A stretch of 64,000 bases of DNA, from assembly GCA_040830765.1 (NCBI GenBank), contig JBFOMH010000004.1:32001-96000 (forward strand), written 5' to 3'. Position numbers and translations under genes: made by a program. Shown piece by piece: positions 16,504-22,424 of this stretch; position 1 is the first letter of the stretch; each line of letters opens with the position of its first letter. A model generated the notes under the pieces. It worked only from the letters and a program-made list of their open reading frames with translations. It ran no database searches and was not told where the DNA came from. This stretch comes from Puniceicoccaceae bacterium. Its GTDB lineage: Bacteria > Verrucomicrobiota > Verrucomicrobiia > Opitutales > Oceanipulchritudinaceae.

Positions 16504-17355
16504 TTAGAGCCGGCAGGTCCGGATGTCCTGGGCGATGATGCCCTTGCCGCCCAATTCGCTCAGTTCGTCGATGATCCTGTTCAAACCGGCCGACTTGACC
16601 ATGGCGGCAACCGCCATCCAGCCCTCTTCGCTGACCGGGGAAACGGTCGGACTCTTGACCCCCGGGGTGATGCGGCAGGCTGCCTCCAGCGCGTCGCTGG
16701 GAATAACATACTCCAGCAGGACATATTCCCGCGCTACAAGAATGCCCTCGAGACGCTTGATGAGGAGGTCCAGTCCCGCGACCGCCTCTGTCTCCTGGCG
16801 CTGGATGAGGATTGCTTCCGAACGGAGAACTGGTTCCCCGATAATCTCCAGTCCGGCCTCCACCAGCGTTCTTCCGGATTCAACGACATCCGCGATGGCA
16901 TCGGCAACACCCAGCTGGATGGAAATTTCCACCGCCCCGTCCAGGCGAACGGTCTTGGCTTCAATGCCCCTTTCCTGGAGATCCGCCCGGACAATGTTCG
17001 GATAGCTGGTGGCAATCCGCATTCCCGCGAGGCCGGAAGGATCCAGCCCCTGGTCCTTTGGCGCGGCATAGCAAAAGCGGGACTTACCGAAATTCAGGGC
17101 CATGCATTCCGTCACCGGTGCCTTCGAGTCCACAGCGAGGTCCCGTCCGGTAATGCCGGCATGAATGAGGCCGGACCCGACGTAGACAGCAATGTCACGC
17201 GGCCTCAAGAAGATGAACTCCACCTCGTGCTCCGCATCGCGGACAACCAGTTCGCGACTGTGACGGCGACAGGCATACCCAGCCTCACTTAATATCTTCA
17301 CGGCCCCCTCGGAAAGGGCCCCCTTGTTTGGAATAGCCAGTTTCAACATTTCCAT
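16504..17355 (-). CDS. hisG: ATP phosphoribosyltransferase, long form
   Basis: LAIPNKGALS, LRPRDIA, GITGRD, IATSYP, LDGAVE, DVVESGRTL plus C-terminal regulatory domain; start 17355 or 17349. Confidence 0.96.
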   Translation of the reverse strand: MEMLKLAIPNKGALSEGAVKILSEAGYACRRHSRELVVRDAEHEVEFIFLRPRDIAVYVGSGLIHAGITGRDLAVDSKAPVTECMALNFGKSRFCYAAPKDQGLDPSGLAGMRIATSYPNIVRADLQERGIEAKTVRLDGAVEISIQLGVADAIADVVESGRTLVEAGLEIIGEPVLRSEAILIQRQETEAVAGLDLLIKRLEGILVAREYVLLEYVIPSDALEAACRITPGVKSPTVSPVSEEGWMAVAAMVKSAGLNRIIDELSELGGKGIIAQDIRTCRL

Positions 17356-17365
17356 ATCCCTCCCC

Positions 17366-17629
17366 TTAAAGGTATCGGTAGACATCCTCCAGTTTCAATT
17401 CGTTGGCCAGCATCATGACCTGGGCGTAGTACAGGAGCTGGGAGATTTCCTCAGCCGCCTCTTCCTTGCTCTCATAACGCGAGGCCATCCACACTTCCCC
17501 GGCCTCCTCGATCAGCTTTTTGCCAATGGCATGCTTGCCCCGCGCCAGGAGCTTGACCGTCCCGGATTCCGGGTCGCCGCGTTCCGCCTTTTCTGACAAC
17601 TCAGCGAATAAACTTTCAAAATCTTTCAT
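17366..17629 (-). CDS. hisE: Phosphoribosyl-ATP pyrophosphohydrolase (monofunctional)
   Basis: [11 protein letters not shown]...[13 protein letters not shown]...EEISQLLY; directly upstream of hisG. Confidence 0.93.
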
Positions 17630-17682
17630 GAACCGACCAACAAAACGCCTCCTGCCCTTTCCCACAATGGCAAATTTTCCTC

Positions 17683-17709
17683 TTTGACATGATTTTTACA
17701 TTTGTAAAA
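17683..17709. promoter_or_regulatory. Candidate operator/promoter between hisE and the response regulator
   Basis: TTGACA at 17684-17689; direct repeats TTTGACAT/TTTTACAT 11 bp apart; palindrome TTTTACA-tt-TGTAAAA (17694-17709). Confidence 0.45.
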
Positions 17710-17750
17710 CCTGCACATATCCCTCAACCTTGGGACAGGAGAATTAGAAC

Positions 17751-18518
17751 ATGGCGAAACCAAAACCACTCATACTGATCGTCGAGGACGATCCTGAACT
17801 TGCCCAGTTGATTTCCGACCAGCTGGAATCGGCAGGAATGCTGACCCAGGTCCATCACCGGGCCGCCAACGTTACCCGCTACCTGCAGAACAACTTTGCC
17901 AACCTGATGTTGCTGGACGTCAACCTTCCGGACCAGTCGGGATTTGCCCTAGTTGACACCCTCAAGCAGGAGGACATCGACCTTCCGGTCATCTTCCTGA
18001 CGGGTAACGACAGCGAAACGGACCGCGTCAAGGGCCTGGAAATGGGCGGAGACGACTACATTACCAAGCCCTTCAGCTTCAGTGAGCTGGTGGCCCGGAT
18101 CAATGCCGTCCTGCGCCGCGCGGAGACCTCCAAGGATGACAAGGTGACCAAGAACGCCAGTGTCTCGGAGGAACCCTTTGAGTTCCAGGGGGCGATGGTG
18201 AATCCGGAACGGATGGAAATCGGCTTCCCGGATGGGGAGTCGGTCAAGATTGGGCGCAAGGAACTGGGCATCCTGTCCTTCCTCAATTCCAATCCGAACA
18301 CGGTCATCACCCGCCGGACCCTCATCCACGGCGTCTGGGGCATCCATGCCGACGTCCGCAGCCGCAGTCTTGACCAGTACATCGTCAAGGTCCGGGGCCT
18401 CTACCAGAAGCACGGACTCAACCTGGATGCGTTCAAGACCATCCATGGTGTGGGCTACATCTACAACACCGAGGGGGAGGCGGATGAAGCCGAGTCCACG
18501 GAGAGCCCGGTAGAGTAG
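17751..18518 (+). CDS. OmpR/PhoB-family response regulator
   Basis: Receiver IVEDD, LLDVNLPD, FLTG, ITKPF; winged helix VWG...RSLDQYIVKVR...TIHGVGY; AGGAG upstream of ATG. Confidence 0.93.
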   Translation: MAKPKPLILIVEDDPELAQLISDQLESAGMLTQVHHRAANVTRYLQNNFANLMLLDVNLPDQSGFALVDTLKQEDIDLPVIFLTGNDSETDRVKGLEMGGDDYITKPFSFSELVARINAVLRRAETSKDDKVTKNASVSEEPFEFQGAMVNPERMEIGFPDGESVKIGRKELGILSFLNSNPNTVITRRTLIHGVWGIHADVRSRSLDQYIVKVRGLYQKHGLNLDAFKTIHGVGYIYNTEGEADEAESTESPVE

Positions 18519-18529
18519 GCTCCCTGCCC

Positions 18530-19186
18530 ATGGAACTGGAACCGAAAACGATCCGGGTCCTTGGAGCCCTGATGGAGAAGGCCCGTACAACCCCGGAAAG
18601 CTACCCCCTTACCCTCAACGCGCTGGTCCATGCCTGTAACCAGAAGACCAGCCGGGACCCCGTGACGGACTATGACGAGGACGAGGTACTGGACGCGCTG
18701 GACGCGCTGCGGGAAATGGGATTCGTCATGCGGGTCGATCTGGCCGGCTCACGAACCGCCAAATTCCGGGAGAACCTGAGTACCCAATGGGACCTGAGTG
18801 CTGAAGAATATGCCCTCCTGGCCACCCTCTTCCTGCGGGGTGCACAGACCCCCGGGCAGCTCCGCCAGCGTTCCGACCGCATGCACCCGTTTGCTGACTT
18901 GCAGCAGGTGAATGATTGTCTGCACCAGATGCAGGAACGGGAGGAAGAGCCGCATTGCCTCGTCCGGTCGCTGGAACGCGCCGCCGGGACCAAGGAGATC
19001 CGCTGGGAACACACCTTTTTACCGGAATCCGCCCCGGCAGCTGGGATTGTTGAAGAGGAGGAGCAGAAACTTCCACCCCCGCAAAACCAGCAACCCAGCC
19101 GGATTGACCAGCTGGAGGAAAGACTGGCGGCATTTGAAAACCGCCTCAAGGCCATCGAGGAGCTGCTCCATGAGCTCAACGACTGA
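18530..19186 (+). CDS. yceH: YceH family protein (DUF480)
   Basis: RVLGALMEKARTTPESYPLTLNALVHACNQKTSRDPV, LRGAQTPGQLRQR, C-terminal coiled coil. Confidence 0.9.
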   Translation: MELEPKTIRVLGALMEKARTTPESYPLTLNALVHACNQKTSRDPVTDYDEDEVLDALDALREMGFVMRVDLAGSRTAKFRENLSTQWDLSAEEYALLATLFLRGAQTPGQLRQRSDRMHPFADLQQVNDCLHQMQEREEEPHCLVRSLERAAGTKEIRWEHTFLPESAPAAGIVEEEEQKLPPPQNQQPSRIDQLEERLAAFENRLKAIEELLHELND

Positions 19187-20492
19187 ACCCACGGGGAACG
19201 GTCTGGTTCTCCTCGACCACAAGACGGTCATCAAGGGGAAGTTTCCACCACTGGAGGTCTATCCGCTTGATGCCCCGACCGGATCCGCCTGGGTGGGTGA
19301 GTTTGACGGAAAGGTGGCATGGCTGTCACTGGGTGACCTCGACGAAAACGCCATCCGCCGATACTGGAAAGGGGAAGTCCGGATCGCAGATGAAGGCCGC
19401 ATCGGTCCTGGGGACCTGTTTGAGGCTTTCCAGGGACAAGCCCGGCTGGAACTGGTGCCCGTCGGGACTGCGTTCCAGCTGTCGGTCTGGCAGGAGCTGG
19501 TTCGTATTCCTTTTGCCACTACACTGACCTATGGGGAACTGGCCGAACGGCTTGGCTCGCCTTCCAAGGCAAGGGCTGTCGGCACGGCAGTGGGGGCCAA
19601 CCCCATCGCCTGGCTCATTCCCTGCCACCGGATCCTTCCGGCTGGGGGCGGCATTGGCAGCTACCGCTGGGGCAGCGCGATCAAGGAGAGCCTCCTGAAC
19701 TGGGAAAACCAGCCCCATCCCACCGGCGCTCCCGATCAGGATGTCGAGGACATCCGCAAGCTGGAAGCGATGCTGCTCAATGCCCAGCGCTTTGAGGACA
19801 TCGCCAAGCTGGCCGGGCACATTGCCCATGACTTGAACAACCTCCTCGCCCCCATCCGGATGGCGACCGAGTTACTGAAGCGCAAACTGGAAGATGATTC
19901 GGTCGGGCGTTATGTGGAAATCATCGAGACCAGTACCGGCCGGGCCCGGGCGGTGATCCAGGAAATCCTTACCTATGCGAGGGAATCGGAAAGCGCGGAC
20001 GCGGAAGTGATCGACATCAACCAGCTTCTCGAGGAACTGGAAGGTCTGGCAGATGATACTTTCCCGGATACGATTACCCTGTCATTTGACTATGATCCGG
20101 AAACTCCCCTGGTGAGCATTGCCCCGCACCAGCTGCACCGCTCCATCCTCAATCTTCTGGTCAATGCCCGGGACGCCATTTCCGGCAGCGGCGAAATCCG
20201 GGTCAAAGTCAGCACCCATGATTTGGAAATGCGGGTCTGCGTCGGGGACCGGTGCATTGTCCCGGGACGTTATGCCTGTATTTCCGTTTCGGATACGGGT
20301 TGTGGCATCAGTCCGGAAATCCGGGAGGAAATATTTGATCCCTTCTTCACCACCAAGCCGAAGGAGAAAGGTACGGGCCTCGGGCTGGCCTCGGTCTTCG
20401 GGATCATCGCCCGATCGGGTGGATTCATCGACCTCGAATCAATCGAGGGCAAGGGCTCGACATTCCATCTGTTCCTGCCTGAAGCAGGATGA
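19170..20492 (+). CDS. Fusion of methylated-DNA--protein-cysteine methyltransferase (Ogt/AGT) and histidine kinase (HisKA + HATPase_c)
   Basis: 440 aa from ATG 19170. AGT: GTAFQ..VW, TYGELA, RAVG, ANP, IPCHR, YRWG, LLNWE. Kinase: AHDLNNLL, NLLVNARDA, DTGCGI, IFDPFFTTK, GTGLGL. Confidence 0.9.
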   Translation: MSSTTEPTGNGLVLLDHKTVIKGKFPPLEVYPLDAPTGSAWVGEFDGKVAWLSLGDLDENAIRRYWKGEVRIADEGRIGPGDLFEAFQGQARLELVPVGTAFQLSVWQELVRIPFATTLTYGELAERLGSPSKARAVGTAVGANPIAWLIPCHRILPAGGGIGSYRWGSAIKESLLNWENQPHPTGAPDQDVEDIRKLEAMLLNAQRFEDIAKLAGHIAHDLNNLLAPIRMATELLKRKLEDDSVGRYVEIIETSTGRARAVIQEILTYARESESADAEVIDINQLLEELEGLADDTFPDTITLSFDYDPETPLVSIAPHQLHRSILNLLVNARDAISGSGEIRVKVSTHDLEMRVCVGDRCIVPGRYACISVSDTGCGISPEIREEIFDPFFTTKPKEKGTGLGLASVFGIIARSGGFIDLESIEGKGSTFHLFLPEAG

Positions 20493-20500
20493 ATGGCCCG

Positions 20501-20800
20501 TTATTCCTTTTTCTCAGGAGCAGCTTCTGCCTCGGGGGCTTCCGCAGCGGGCGCCGGTGGCGGCACCTCTTTGGCGGCTGGTGGAGCCGGCTTCTTTTCC
20601 GGCTCAACGGAATCCATGGCTTCCTGAAAATCGTCCTGCACTTCCTGGGCGGCCTTCTTGAATTCCTTCATGGACTTGCCCAGCCCCTTGGCCAGTTCCG
20701 GAAGCTTCTTGGCCCCAAACAAAAGCAGAATGATAACAAGGATAATCAGCAGCTCGGGACCACCGAAACCCTGAATAAATGCTGGATGGAGTAAATTCAT
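20501..20800 (-). CDS. tatA: Twin-arginine translocase TatA/TatE
   Basis: [38 protein letters not shown] plus Pro/Ala/Glu tail. Confidence 0.93.
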
Positions 20801-20934
20801 CAACTTCAACCATAAGGTGGGCGGGGCATCTGTAAAGGATAAGAAACAGCTGCCATGGAATGCCGGGAATGTTCTTCGCGCTTGCAAAGTCGCCCGGCCA
20901 TTTGCTTCCTTTGTAGGGGAAGTTTCCCACTGCC

Positions 20935-21387
20935 ATGAAACCGATTAGGCGAGACGAATTAACAACAGCATACATGACCGCCCTGCAAGAGGCAGAAGCC
21001 GCCCTCGAGCAGAGCTATTGCCCGCACTCCGGGCTATCCGTGGCCGCCGGCCTCGTCCTTTCCTCGGGGGAAGTGATCACGGGCATCAACTACGAAAGTG
21101 TCTCCTACGGACTGACCCTGTGCGCCGAGCGCAGCGCCATTACCCGTGCCCAGGTCGAAGGCAAAATCCCGGACGTGGTAGGGCTGGTCCTGTCCGCCTG
21201 CAACCGGGAATCTGAAAAAGACGGTCAGCCCCTCACTCCCTGTGGAGCCTGCCGGCAGTGGTTGCTAGAGCTGAGCAACCGCCTCGGGCGGGACATCCCC
21301 GTCTACAGTTTCTGGAAGGGCACTGATTCCGGATTGGCCGGAACGGTGCGTGAATTATTACCATCGGCCTTTGAATCATTCCAATGA
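20935..21387 (+). CDS. cdd: Cytidine deaminase
   Basis: SYCPHS, GINYES, LCAERSA, PCGACRQ, LLPSAF. Confidence 0.9.
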
Positions 21388-22424
21388 AAAGCACCCAAGC
21401 CGCATCCATCGCCATTATCATCACCTTTGTCTTTGCCATCCTGACACTGGGGAAGGATCTCATCATCCCGATGGTCCTGGCCATCTTCATCTGGTACCTC
21501 ATCAACATCCTGGCAGACTCCATCGCCATGCTGAAGATCGGGAAATTCACCCCACCCCGTTTCCTCTGCTTCCTCCTCGCGATGTTTGTCATCTTCGGAT
21601 CGTTGATTGTCTTCACGAACCTGATCAGCACCAGCATTAACAATGTCATCAAGACCGCTCCCTCCTACCAGGCCAATGTGGAAAGCCTGCTGGAACGTGG
21701 TGCCGACCTGATGGGCCTGGACGAGTCGCCGCAGCTGGCAGAGCTGGTCCGCAAGATTGACTTCACGAAGATCATCCAGGGCCTGGGCCTGACCGTTGCC
21801 GGGTTCATTGGAAGTGCCGGGATTATCCTCATCTACACCCTCTTCATCTTTCTTGAGCAGAAATGCTTCCTGCCAAAAATCGATAACATGGTCGGAGGCG
21901 GGCAGCAGCGGGACAAGGTGCGTTCCATCATGCGCCGCATCTACAGCGACACCAAGACCTATATCGGCATCAAGACCCTGACCAGTCTCCTGACCGGATT
22001 TGTCAGCTACTTCATCATGCGCTCCATCGGCCTGGACTTTGCCGTCTTCTGGGCACTGCTGATTTTCCTCTTCAACTACATTCCGACGATTGGGTCCATC
22101 GTGGCCACGGTCTTCCCTTCCATCCTGGCCCTGGTCCAGTTCCCCACCCTGACCCCGTTCTTCATTGTGGTCATCGGCGTGACCGCCACCCAGATGGTTG
22201 TCGGGAATATCATCGAGCCTCGCCTGATGGGGAATACGCTGAACCTGAGCCCATTGGTCATCCTGCTCGCCCTCGCCTTGTGGGGATCGATATGGGGAAT
22301 CCCCGGGGCCATCCTTTGTGTTCCCATCACGGTCCTGATGATGATCATTTTCAGCAATTTCCAGGCCACCCGGCCAATTGCCATTCTCCTTTCCAAGAAC
22401 GGCGAGATCCGGCCGGATTCCTGA
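21384..22424 (+). CDS. AI-2E family transporter
   Basis: Multi-TM; FNYIPTIGS, GNIIEPRLMG..LNLSP, WGSIWGIPGAILCVP. Confidence 0.9.
   Translation: MKSTQAASIAIIITFVFAILTLGKDLIIPMVLAIFIWYLINILADSIAMLKIGKFTPPRFLCFLLAMFVIFGSLIVFTNLISTSINNVIKTAPSYQANVESLLERGADLMGLDESPQLAELVRKIDFTKIIQGLGLTVAGFIGSAGIILIYTLFIFLEQKCFLPKIDNMVGGGQQRDKVRSIMRRIYSDTKTYIGIKTLTSLLTGFVSYFIMRSIGLDFAVFWALLIFLFNYIPTIGSIVATVFPSILALVQFPTLTPFFIVVIGVTATQMVVGNIIEPRLMGNTLNLSPLVILLALALWGSIWGIPGAILCVPITVLMMIIFSNFQATRPIAILLSKNGEIRPDS

What the first reader, a model, noticed from the sequence alone, without database searches (positions are those of the whole stretch)
17751..20492. Tightly coupled operon: OmpR regulator, YceH (DUF480), Ogt-kinase
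Seen: three co-oriented genes with an 11-nt gap and a 17-nt overlap, bounded by divergent hisE and convergent tatA. The kinase has no receiver domain, so it needs a partner, and a regulator with intact Asp/Lys is in the same unit. YceH is uncharacterised. Inference: a three-gene alkylation-response module that might give YceH a function. Caveat: AHDxNN-type kinases usually pair with non-OmpR receivers, so cognate pairing is unproven.
Basis: partly seen in the sequence, partly recalled or inferred. Interest (0 to 1): 0.7.

Follow-up and report, generated by a model that had tools for sequence, protein, structure and literature searches.

The report
DNA-repair domain fused to sensor kinase
A marine Verrucomicrobia genus has a signalling kinase whose input end is an intact DNA-alkylation repair enzyme, encoded between a conserved regulator, the mystery protein YceH and nothing else, which suggests an untested way for bacteria to sense DNA alkylation.

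Summary
Three co-oriented genes lie at 17751-20492: an OmpR-type regulator, YceH/DUF480, and a 440-aa soluble kinase made of an Ogt domain, a flexible linker, HisKA and HATPase_c. The gap is 11 nt and the overlap 17 nt; hisE is divergent and tatA convergent.

The fusion has 52 protein clusters, all keeping PCHR. Names that sources give place them in Oceanipulchritudo/Puniceicoccaceae. It was not found in 399 other Verrucomicrobiota genomes sampled.

Twelve genus genomes keep the locus in three forms:
- RR-YceH-Ogt::HK in 7, the likely ancestral form.
- RR-YceH-short HK without Ogt in 3.
- RR-standalone Ogt-X::HK without YceH in 2.

Outside the genus the regulator is an orphan next to hisE (0 of 20 loci with a kinase beside it), and YceH never sits beside a kinase or regulator (0 of 40).

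So the regulator-kinase pairing and the Ogt-kinase link are well supported by synteny. An obligatory three-gene alkylation module is not.

My best reading, at about 0.4, is that the tethered, catalytically intact Ogt reports DNA alkylation to the kinase, with YceH as a co-produced accessory. The main rival is that Ogt is cargo or output, as in Ada and as with NarL-controlled ogt.

Contigs from RNA libraries span both gene junctions. I rate this a new variant of a known kind; nothing on it turned up in my literature searches.

The parts
17695..17708 (.). Perfect palindrome TTTACA-TT-TGTAAA, 43 nt upstream of the regulator's ATG; candidate operator
   Evidence: Present upstream of the regulator in 12 of 12 genus loci, and as a full palindrome within 130 nt in 3 of 8 out-of-genus loci inspected. 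It is the only exact copy in the 3.99-Mb genome. One further site appears at 1 mismatch, against 3 for the reversed control.
17751..18518 (+). OmpR/PhoB-family response regulator (255 aa): receiver with D56, T84 and K106, plus a winged-helix output domain
   Evidence: Pfam. Orthologue in 34 of 37 family genomes, 76-96% identical within the genus and 56-73% outside it.
18530..19186 (+). YceH/UPF0502/DUF480 (218 aa): tandem winged helix (aa 1-165), disordered linker, C-terminal helix 191-217
   Evidence: Pfam 3.5e-55. PDB 5u8j 2.4e-37 and 5vyv 4.4e-36. Model pLDDT 91. Foldseek TM 0.86-0.89 to 5u8j, 5vyv and 3bz6. Single copy in the genome.
19170..20492 (+). Ogt::histidine kinase fusion (440 aa), soluble, no receiver domain
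   Evidence: Pfam. Model pLDDT 86.5. 52 related fused protein clusters.
19200..19709 (+). Alkyltransferase (Ogt/Ada-C-like) domain, aa 11-180; acceptor Cys152 at 19623-19625 in the PCHR motif
   Evidence: pLDDT 90-98. Aligns to M. tuberculosis OGT 4bhb (7e-21) and E. coli Ada-C 1sfe (6e-19). Y121, R135, N144, P151, C152, H153, R154 and E179 are invariant in 42 of 42 aligned fusions.
19710..19736 (+). Flexible Pro-rich linker (aa 181-189)
   Evidence: pLDDT below 50 at 184-188. Variable in sequence and length among the fusions.
19737..20489 (+). Kinase core: DHp helices aa 190-272 with H220 (19827-19829, H-box IAHDLNN), and CA domain aa 279-440
   Evidence: H220, N328, N332, D375-G377-G379 and G401-G403-G405 are invariant in 50 aligned sequences. 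Helices 190-239 and 243-272 in the model.

Best explanation
The three genes form one operon encoding a cytoplasmic two-component system. The kinase has no conventional sensor domain. Its N-terminus is a catalytically competent O6-alkylguanine-DNA alkyltransferase, tethered to the phospho-acceptor helices by a short flexible linker.

Proposed mechanism. The Ogt domain scans DNA and takes an alkyl group irreversibly onto Cys152. Either the alkylated (destabilised) domain or its engagement with damaged DNA shifts the kinase/phosphatase balance of the dimeric core. That changes phosphorylation of the adjacent OmpR-type regulator at D56, and so changes transcription, probably including the operon itself through the conserved upstream palindrome. 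YceH is made in fixed ratio with the kinase through the conserved 17-nt overlap and acts as an accessory or co-sensor of the kinase core.

What is shown:
- Gene order, domain make-up and an intact catalytic motif set.
- Conservation of the regulator-kinase adjacency.
- Association of Ogt with this kinase in two architectures, fused and separate.
- Contigs from RNA libraries across both junctions.

What is inferred:
- Phosphotransfer to this regulator.
- Alkylation as the signal.
- Any YceH-kinase contact.
- Autoregulation.
For: - Operon anatomy: see the observation check.
- The regulator and kinase are adjacent at the same syntenic site in 12 of 12 genus genomes with data. A thirteenth, G003 (84% complete), gave no match.
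- Ogt is tied to this kinase in two ways. It is fused in 7 genomes. In 2 genomes it is a separate 190-aa gene lying between the regulator and the kinase. That standalone Ogt is closest to the fused domains (104-127 bits) rather than to the genome's Ada (62-64 bits).
- All 52 fused clusters keep PCHR. Nine catalytic or DNA-binding positions are invariant in 42 of 42 aligned fusions, with one Y-to-F at position 165. Selection therefore acts on alkyl transfer, not only on fold.
- The domain occupies the N-terminal position where kinases carry input domains.
- The genome has a separate canonical Ada, so this Ogt is not simply the cell's only repair copy.
- The YceH/kinase overlap is conserved in 8 of 10 loci, including the three without Ogt.
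- Contigs from RNA libraries bridge RR/YceH (X2, X6, X3) and YceH/kinase (X2, X4, X6, X3). One is a 3,162-nt contig covering 17765-20926 with no differences.
- Helix alpha-1 of the genus regulators carries genus-specific changes (DDPEL versus DDKQI or DEKEL outside the genus). This fits a new kinase partner but does not prove one.
Against: - The Ogt-DHp link is a variable, disordered, Pro-rich stretch rather than a continuous signalling helix. Classical allosteric transmission is therefore unlikely.
- The Ogt domain has been lost while the regulator, YceH and kinase stayed (3 genomes, 19 protein clusters). These losses are nested among fused forms on both trees. Ogt is thus dispensable for the system.
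- There is precedent for Ogt as cargo or output. The closest non-kinase relatives are AraC-Ogt (Ada-like) fusions. By recalled knowledge, the main switch in Ada is the N-terminal Zn-Cys domain, not the Ogt part. E. coli ogt is a NarL target (PMC7419079, abstract start only).
- The H-box type (IAHDLNN) and the nearest paralogues (hybrid CckA-like kinases) are not those typical of OmpR partners (recalled knowledge).
- YceH is beside no kinase or regulator in 0 of 40 loci outside the genus. It is fused to no signalling domain among 63 longer homologues.
- The RNA-library data are assembled contigs from oligo-dT libraries. DNA carry-over is not excluded, and a contig does not prove a single transcript.
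Confidence: 0.4

Rival explanations
1. Ogt is cargo or output, not input. The two-component system is driven by some other cue, possibly read by YceH acting on a sensor-less kinase in the way PII acts on NtrB. Ogt is simply co-expressed with an autoregulated operon, so that repair capacity rises with the response. The fusion arose because the genes were neighbours.
For: - Kinases without Ogt keep YceH and the coupled start.
- The linker is flexible.
- The nearest non-kinase relatives of the Ogt domain are regulator-Ogt fusions of the Ada type.
- A two-component system is known to control ogt in E. coli (PMC7419079, abstract start).
- B. subtilis adaA-adaB co-transcribes the regulator and the transferase (recalled).
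- A palindrome upstream of the operon is compatible with autoregulation.
Against: - The domain sits exactly at the kinase's input position.
- Fusing a single-use suicide enzyme to a catalytic kinase is an odd way to deliver repair capacity.
- No evidence shows YceH binding the kinase, and YceH is unlinked to signalling genes elsewhere.
- The palindrome is also present where the regulator is an orphan, so it says nothing about Ogt.
Confidence: 0.3
2. The Ogt domain is a DNA-localisation or damage-recognition module, working like alkyltransferase-like (ATL) proteins. It places the kinase on the nucleoid or at lesions. Signalling depends on DNA binding, not on the alkyl transfer itself. YceH, a tandem winged helix, may share this DNA-proximal role.
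For: - The helix-turn-helix, arginine-finger and Tyr positions are invariant.
- A flexible tether suits localisation.
- The YceH fold is tandem winged helix. Its distant structural neighbours are DNA- or protein-binding winged-helix proteins such as RPC62, ScpB and MarR (weak, high rmsd).
Against: - The acceptor Cys and the His/Glu network are invariant in 42 of 42. True ATLs have lost the Cys (recalled; 3gva matches only weakly, 1e-5).
- DNA binding by YceH has not been shown anywhere (PMC13246756, passage read, still lists it as of unknown function).
Confidence: 0.12
3. The adjacency is a genus-specific accident of rearrangement. The kinase signals to another receiver, and the conserved orphan regulator keeps an unlinked partner kinase, as it must in other genera.
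For: - The regulator is an orphan next to hisE in 20 of 20 loci outside the genus, with no kinase beside it.
- The H-box type and the hybrid-kinase ancestry of the core.
- Related X-HK-REC hybrids exist.
Against: - The adjacency survived in 12 of 12 genus genomes through three architectural changes, including apparent replacement of the kinase's N-terminal half.
- The genes are tightly packed and co-oriented.
- Contigs from RNA libraries bridge the junctions.
Confidence: 0.1

Closest known systems
E. coli Ada (adaptive response regulator) and the AraC-Ogt fusions of about 285 aa
   Same: An Ogt-type suicide alkyltransferase is covalently joined to a regulatory protein. Irreversible Cys alkylation can serve as a damage signal. 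The AraC-Ogt proteins are the closest non-kinase relatives of this Ogt domain among proteins of 242-770 aa.
   Different: Ada is a one-component transcription factor. Its switch is the N-terminal Zn-Cys methylphosphotriester acceptor (recalled). The fusion here has neither that domain nor an AraC HTH. It would signal by phosphotransfer through a separate regulator. The genome carries a canonical Ada as well.
Stand-alone Ogt/MGMT (M. tuberculosis OGT 4bhb, E. coli Ada-C 1sfe, human MGMT 1eh6)
   Same: The same domain with all hallmark residues present.
   Different: Those proteins are free repair enzymes. Here the domain is the N-terminal module of a histidine kinase, or a separate gene inside the kinase operon in 2 genomes.
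NarX/NarL control of the E. coli ogt promoter
   Same: A two-component system linked to O6-alkylguanine alkyltransferase (PMC7419079, abstract start seen).
   Different: There Ogt is a transcriptional target of the regulator. There is no physical fusion and the genes are not in one operon.
NtrB-PII, and kinase inhibitors such as Sda or KipI acting on KinA (accessory-protein control of a kinase core)
   Same: A small soluble protein encoded with, or acting on, a kinase that has little or no sensor domain. One source names the Ogt-less form 'NtrB'.
   Different: This is an analogy only. YceH is unrelated to PII, and no binding is shown.
YceH/UPF0502/DUF480 (PDB 5vyv, 5u8j, 3bz6)
   Same: A clear member: 42-44% identity to the E. 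coli and Enterobacter structures, TM 0.86-0.89.
   Different: Only in this genus does it sit inside a two-component operon. There its C-terminal helix ends in L-x-E-L-x-x instead of the F-x-x-F-(R/K)-x-Q-F-(E/D) ending seen in most of the 38 out-of-genus sequences.

Membership tests
O6-alkylguanine-DNA alkyltransferase (Ogt/Ada-C/MGMT, PF01035) | PCHR active-site motif with the acceptor cysteine | tested here: met
   P151-C152-H153-R154. Present in 52 of 52 fused clusters and invariant in 42 of 42 aligned.
O6-alkylguanine-DNA alkyltransferase (Ogt/Ada-C/MGMT, PF01035) | Helix-turn-helix DNA-binding region with the Tyr and the arginine finger, the Asn hinge, and the Glu of the His-Glu network (residue roles recalled) | tested here: met
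   Y121, R135, N144 and E179 are invariant in 42 of 42. They align with 4bhb and 1sfe. Pfam 2.8e-28 over profile positions 1-80 of 81.
O6-alkylguanine-DNA alkyltransferase (Ogt/Ada-C/MGMT, PF01035) | N-terminal alpha/beta subdomain | tested here: inconclusive
   The model has a confident beta-rich region at 11-95 (pLDDT 95-98). There was no Pfam PF02870 hit, and I ran no fold search on this model.
O6-alkylguanine-DNA alkyltransferase (Ogt/Ada-C/MGMT, PF01035) | Stoichiometric alkyl transfer from DNA | not testable with these tools
   Needs biochemistry.
Class I histidine kinase (HisKA + HATPase_c) | H-box histidine in a two-helix DHp; N, G1, F and G2 boxes in the ATP-binding domain | tested here: met
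   H220, N328/N332, D375-G377-G379, F389-F392 and G401-G403-G405 are invariant in 50 sequences. Pfam hits. Helices 190-239 and 243-272.
Class I histidine kinase (HisKA + HATPase_c) | Phosphotransfer to a cognate receiver | not testable with these tools
   Only synteny speaks for it: 12 of 12 genus genomes.
OmpR/PhoB-family response regulator | Receiver with acidic pocket, phospho-Asp, Thr and Lys, plus a C-terminal winged-helix Trans_reg_C domain | tested here: met
   E12/D13, D56, T84 and K106 read from the translation. Pfam 1.4e-26 and 4.4e-13.
YceH/UPF0502 (DUF480, PF04337) | Sequence and fold match to the tandem winged-helix family | tested here: met
   Pfam 3.5e-55. PDB 5u8j 2.4e-37. Foldseek TM 0.86-0.89. 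17 columns are invariant across 48 sequences.
Ada adaptive-response regulator | N-terminal Zn(Cys)4 methylphosphotriester acceptor plus AraC-type HTH | tested here: not met
   No such Pfam domains in the fusion. They are present instead in a separate 394-aa gene on another contig.
Alkyltransferase-like (ATL) damage sensors | Ogt fold lacking the acceptor cysteine | tested here: not met
   The Cys is present and invariant. ATL 3gva matches only at 1e-5.

The most novel reading that the evidence does not exclude
This is a two-component DNA-alkylation sensor. Each kinase subunit carries a single-use alkyl acceptor, so the fraction of alkylated kinase gives an irreversible, stoichiometric count of O6-alkylguanine lesions, passed on as regulator phosphorylation. 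YceH, a conserved protein with solved structures but no known function, is the kinase's co-sensor or adaptor. The natural Ogt-less and YceH-less variants within one genus provide ready-made controls.
Probability: 0.25. Interest if true: 0.8.

Novelty: new variant of a known kind. Interest (0 to 1): 0.6.

Why it matters
Histidine kinases are known to sense ligands, light, redox state and membrane state. A suicide DNA-repair enzyme as the input module would add covalent, irreversible damage counting to that list. It would be a phosphorelay counterpart of the one-component Ada switch.

The locus also offers one of the few genomic handles on YceH/DUF480, which has three crystal structures and no function. 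Closely related genomes carry all three natural versions: with Ogt, without Ogt, and without YceH. Comparative experiments are therefore straightforward. The source name on P0023 points to a named strain that carries the fusion.

If Ogt proves to be mere cargo, the locus remains a neat example of modular turnover at a two-component operon, but of modest interest.

Tried and rejected
- Complex prediction of the full kinase with YceH returned no verdict. It says nothing either way about binding.
- Metagenome scan with the X-HK-REC hybrid P0072: 15 loci, all only 25-34% identical. I obtained no genomic context for that form.
- The same hybrid searched in 37 family genomes: outside the genus only 32-37% full-length paralogues turned up, plus one 260-aa frame at 47% that I did not follow. 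Its place in the history stays open.
- Clustering of ORFs around YceH in 40 out-of-genus loci: the commonest real neighbour occurs in only 6 of 40. Context gives no functional hint.
- Palindrome regulon search: one exact site only, and one more at 1 mismatch against 3 for the control. No regulon could be derived.
- Promoter and terminator scan of 17300-21000: counts were no higher than in shuffles, so it is uninformative.
- RNA-library contigs of X2 and X4 leave 17636-17764 uncovered. Both runs are from one study and are contigs only, so I draw no transcript boundary from this.
- Earlier-findings look-ups by place and by fusion words gave nothing relevant.
- Literature searches (listings only) found no report of an Ogt-kinase fusion. 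The YceH/DUF480 search found no functional study. One passage (PMC13246756) still lists YceH as of unknown function.
- My first idea, that the separate-Ogt form was ancestral and the fusion derived, is not favoured by the flank tree. The fused form lies on both basal branches of the genus.
Full report
**Observation**

The third lies in a longer open frame that starts at 18912. The ATG at 19170 follows a GAGGAG 7-12 nt upstream and gives the 17-nt overlap with the YceH stop. The gap between genes 1 and 2 is 11 nt.

Pfam gives the following:
- Gene 1: Response_reg plus Trans_reg_C.
- Gene 2: DUF480.
- Gene 3: DNA_binding_1 (Ogt) plus HisKA plus HATPase_c, with no receiver and no membrane segment.
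- Flanks: hisE (divergent) and tatA (convergent).

The window is G000:C4:32001-96000 of a 3.99-Mb, 40-contig genome. Names that sources give to close homologues place it in Oceanipulchritudo/Puniceicoccaceae, Verrucomicrobiota.

**Anatomy of the kinase**

An AlphaFold model built on 50 homologues has mean pLDDT 86.5. It shows four parts:
- A very confident Ogt domain (aa 11-180, pLDDT 90-98).
- A disordered linker (184-188 below 50).
- Two long DHp helices (190-239 and 243-272).
- A CA domain (279-438).

The Ogt part aligns with M. tuberculosis OGT (4bhb, 7e-21) and E. coli Ada-C (1sfe, 6e-19).

All 52 fused protein clusters I recovered keep PCHR (49, 3 more). I aligned 42 of those 52, leaving out ten truncated or partial ones. 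In these, Y121, R135, N144, P151, C152, H153, R154 and E179 are invariant, and Y165 is Y in 41 and F in 1. The roles of these residues are recalled from the MGMT/Ada literature.

The linker between Ogt and the kinase core varies in length and sequence. In the kinase core, the H-box (IAHDLNN, H220) and the N, G1, F and G2 boxes are invariant in all 50 aligned sequences.

**Variation inside the genus**

A search of 41 related genomes found full-length matches only in the window's genus. I fetched the locus from 11 other genus genomes and mapped the genes by tblastn and ORF listing.

The frame polA-5'exo, hisG, hisE | regulator ... kinase | tatA, cdd, AI-2E transporter is the same in all. Between regulator and tatA there are three architectures:
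- Type A, RR-YceH-Ogt::HK: G000, G010, G007, G004, G006, G001 (cut by a contig end) and G012 (gene split over two contig ends).
- Type B, RR-YceH-HK of 263-277 aa with no Ogt: G009, G008, G005.
- Type C, RR-standalone Ogt (190 aa)-HK of 405-406 aa with an unassigned N-terminal domain of about 155 aa, and no YceH: G011, G002.

A thirteenth genome, G003 (84% complete), gave no match for regulator or kinase.

The ATG inside the YceH coding end, giving a 17-nt overlap, is kept in 8 of 10 loci with YceH, including all three type B loci. G010 has an 8-nt overlap and G001 has none.

The type C standalone Ogt is closest to the fused Ogt domains (104-127 bits). It is further from an AraC-Ogt protein (87-92 bits) and from the genome's Ada (62-64 bits). 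Ogt therefore stays with this kinase in two different architectures.

**Order of events**

I built a tree of polA-exo, hisG, hisE and the regulator from 12 genus loci and 5 outgroup loci. These were the five of 20 outgroup loci that carry all four genes. The genus is monophyletic (100/100). Type A lies on both basal branches. Type C is nested beside G001 (97/95). Type B is nested among type A in two places.

A quick tree of the kinase core used 52 chosen rows: 19 of 52 type A, 12 of 19 type B, 6 of 7 type C, 8 of 9 hybrids and 7 outgroup paralogues. It puts A and B together (SH-aLRT 97) with B scattered inside A. Type C and the X-HK-REC hybrids fall outside in an unresolved position.

The simplest reading is this:
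- The fused form is ancestral for the genus.
- The Ogt domain was deleted in frame more than once.
- In one lineage the YceH-plus-fusion stretch was remodelled with a kinase of the X-domain type, while Ogt was kept as its own gene.

This reading is inference. The core tree is a quick tree with some long branches.

**Outside the genus**

The regulator has one clear orthologue in 34 of 37 family genomes, 56-73% identical outside the genus. In 20 such loci it usually lies divergent to hisE. In 0 of 20 is it next to a kinase, YceH or Ogt.

DUF480 occurs in 75 of 201 genomes of the order, nearly always as a single copy. In 40 loci from other genera it is adjacent to no kinase or regulator; 3 loci have one 3-5 kb away. 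It has no recurrent neighbour; the best is 6 of 40.

A phylum sample of 401 genomes in 184 genera gave matches at E below 1e-70 only in the two genus genomes it contained. I found no independent Ogt-kinase fusion in those searched. Other phyla were not searched by architecture.

**Other alkylation genes**

G000 has exactly two PF01035 matches. One is this fusion. The other is a 394-aa protein with a Cys-rich N-terminus, an AraC-like middle and PCHRV, which I read as a canonical Ada. I did not run Pfam on it.

Among proteins of 242-770 aa, the nearest relatives of the Ogt domain after the kinase fusions are AraC-Ogt regulators of about 285 aa (top 120 of 3,980 hits).

**YceH**

It is a clear member of UPF0502:
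- PDB 5u8j 2.4e-37, 5vyv 4.4e-36, 3bz6 6.4e-27.
- Model pLDDT 91.
- Foldseek TM 0.86-0.89 to those entries. Everything else (RPC62, ESCRT-II, ScpB, MarR-type) is a weak tandem-winged-helix resemblance with high rmsd.

I aligned 48 sequences, leaving out two of 50: one with an in-frame stop and one with an uncertain start. The family's invariant residues are kept. The genus proteins end in L-x-E-L-x-x, where most of the 38 outside sequences end in F-x-x-F-(R/K)-x-Q-F-(E/D). That stretch is also the one overlapped by the kinase start.

Among 63 longer homologues, most are DUF480 fused to SAM-dependent methyltransferase domains. Six are fused to a PEP-mutase-like domain and one to an MscS channel. 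None is fused to a kinase or receiver.

The literature search found no functional study. One 2026 paper still lists YceH among proteins of unknown function (PMC13246756, passage read).

**Expression**

The stretch is held by three oligo-dT metatranscriptome runs of one study and by runs of a second study whose RNA label is a guess. All data are assembled contigs.

- Run X2 has one 3,162-nt contig covering 17765-20926 without differences.
- The RR/YceH junction is bridged in X2, X6 and X3.
- The YceH/kinase junction is bridged in X2, X4, X6 and X3.

This is compatible with co-transcription in nature. It proves neither a single transcript nor freedom from DNA carry-over.

**A conserved upstream palindrome**

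TTTACA-TT-TGTAAA (17695-17708) lies 43 nt before the regulator's ATG. It is the one block kept in all 12 genus loci. A full copy also lies within 130 nt of the orphan regulator in 3 of 8 outgroup loci inspected. It is unique in the genome. It is a candidate operator for the regulator gene. Whose operator it is remains unknown.

**Mechanism**

What is solid:
- A soluble kinase without a conventional sensor.
- An adjacent, conserved OmpR-type regulator.
- A catalytically intact Ogt that stays with the kinase whether fused or separate.
- A YceH gene whose end is interlocked with the kinase start.

My preferred reading, at about 0.4, is that Ogt reports alkylation damage to the kinase through its irreversible alkylated state or its engagement with damaged DNA, with YceH as accessory.

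The strongest counter-arguments are three:
- The floppy linker.
- The repeated loss of Ogt with the rest of the system intact.
- The Ada and NarL-ogt precedents, in which Ogt is cargo or target rather than switch (PMC7419079, abstract start; Ada mechanism recalled).

The rivals are:
- Ogt as cargo or output, with YceH or something else as sensor (0.3).
- Ogt as a DNA or lesion tether (0.12).
- No cognate pairing at all (0.1).

Genus-specific substitutions in helix alpha-1 of the regulator fit rewiring to a new kinase but are only suggestive.

**Comparison and novelty**

The system works most like Ada in concept, with a covalent alkyl mark on a regulator. It is not an Ada: it has no Zn-Cys domain and no AraC HTH. 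It is not an ATL either, because the Cys is present. Each part is an ordinary member of its family (Ogt, class I kinase, OmpR regulator, UPF0502).

What is new is the combination of an Ogt domain at the input end of a histidine kinase with YceH inside a two-component operon. NCBI and JGI name these proteins only as 'methylated-DNA--protein-cysteine methyltransferase'. My four searches found no paper on the fusion. Subscription journals are not covered by that library.

I rate it a new variant of a known kind, interest 0.6.

Noticed in passing
window 17695-17708: A perfect 14-bp palindrome, TTTACATTTGTAAA, lies upstream of the regulator. It is conserved in all 12 genus loci and in some other genera where the regulator is an orphan. 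It is the only exact copy in the genome.
   Followed up: partly
L025 601-1785 (G000 contig C8): A 394-aa ORF that reads as a canonical Ada: a Cys-rich N-terminus, an AraC-like middle, and a C-terminal Ogt with PCHRV. The genome therefore has a conventional adaptive-response regulator as well as the kinase fusion.
   Followed up: partly
P0201-P0263: Most longer YceH/DUF480 homologues are fusions to class I SAM-dependent methyltransferase domains; sources name some Nocardioides or Actinomycetia. A few are fused to a PEP-mutase-like domain or an MscS channel. None is fused to a signalling domain.
   Followed up: no
L021 and L022 (type C kinases); P0068-P0084: An N-terminal domain of about 155 aa begins ARLLDLP(Y/F)C-W-W. 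It is shared by the type C kinases and a set of X-HK-REC hybrid kinases and has no Pfam match at E below 0.1. Its genomic context outside the genus could not be obtained.
   Followed up: partly
A1 alignment, C-terminal 12 residues: Most of the 38 out-of-genus Opitutales YceH proteins aligned end in the conserved motif F-x-x-F-(R/K)-x-Q-F-(E/D). The genus proteins, whose gene end overlaps the kinase start, have lost it.
   Followed up: partly
window 20935-22424: The cytidine deaminase gene (20935-21387) and the AI-2E family transporter gene (21384-22424) overlap by 4 nt. They are syntenic with the locus in all genus genomes examined.
   Followed up: no
window 20501-20887 (minus strand): The listed tatA ORF (128 aa, TTG start) is probably too long at its 5' end. 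The Pfam TatA match starts at residue 42, and relatives align only from about residue 29.
   Followed up: no
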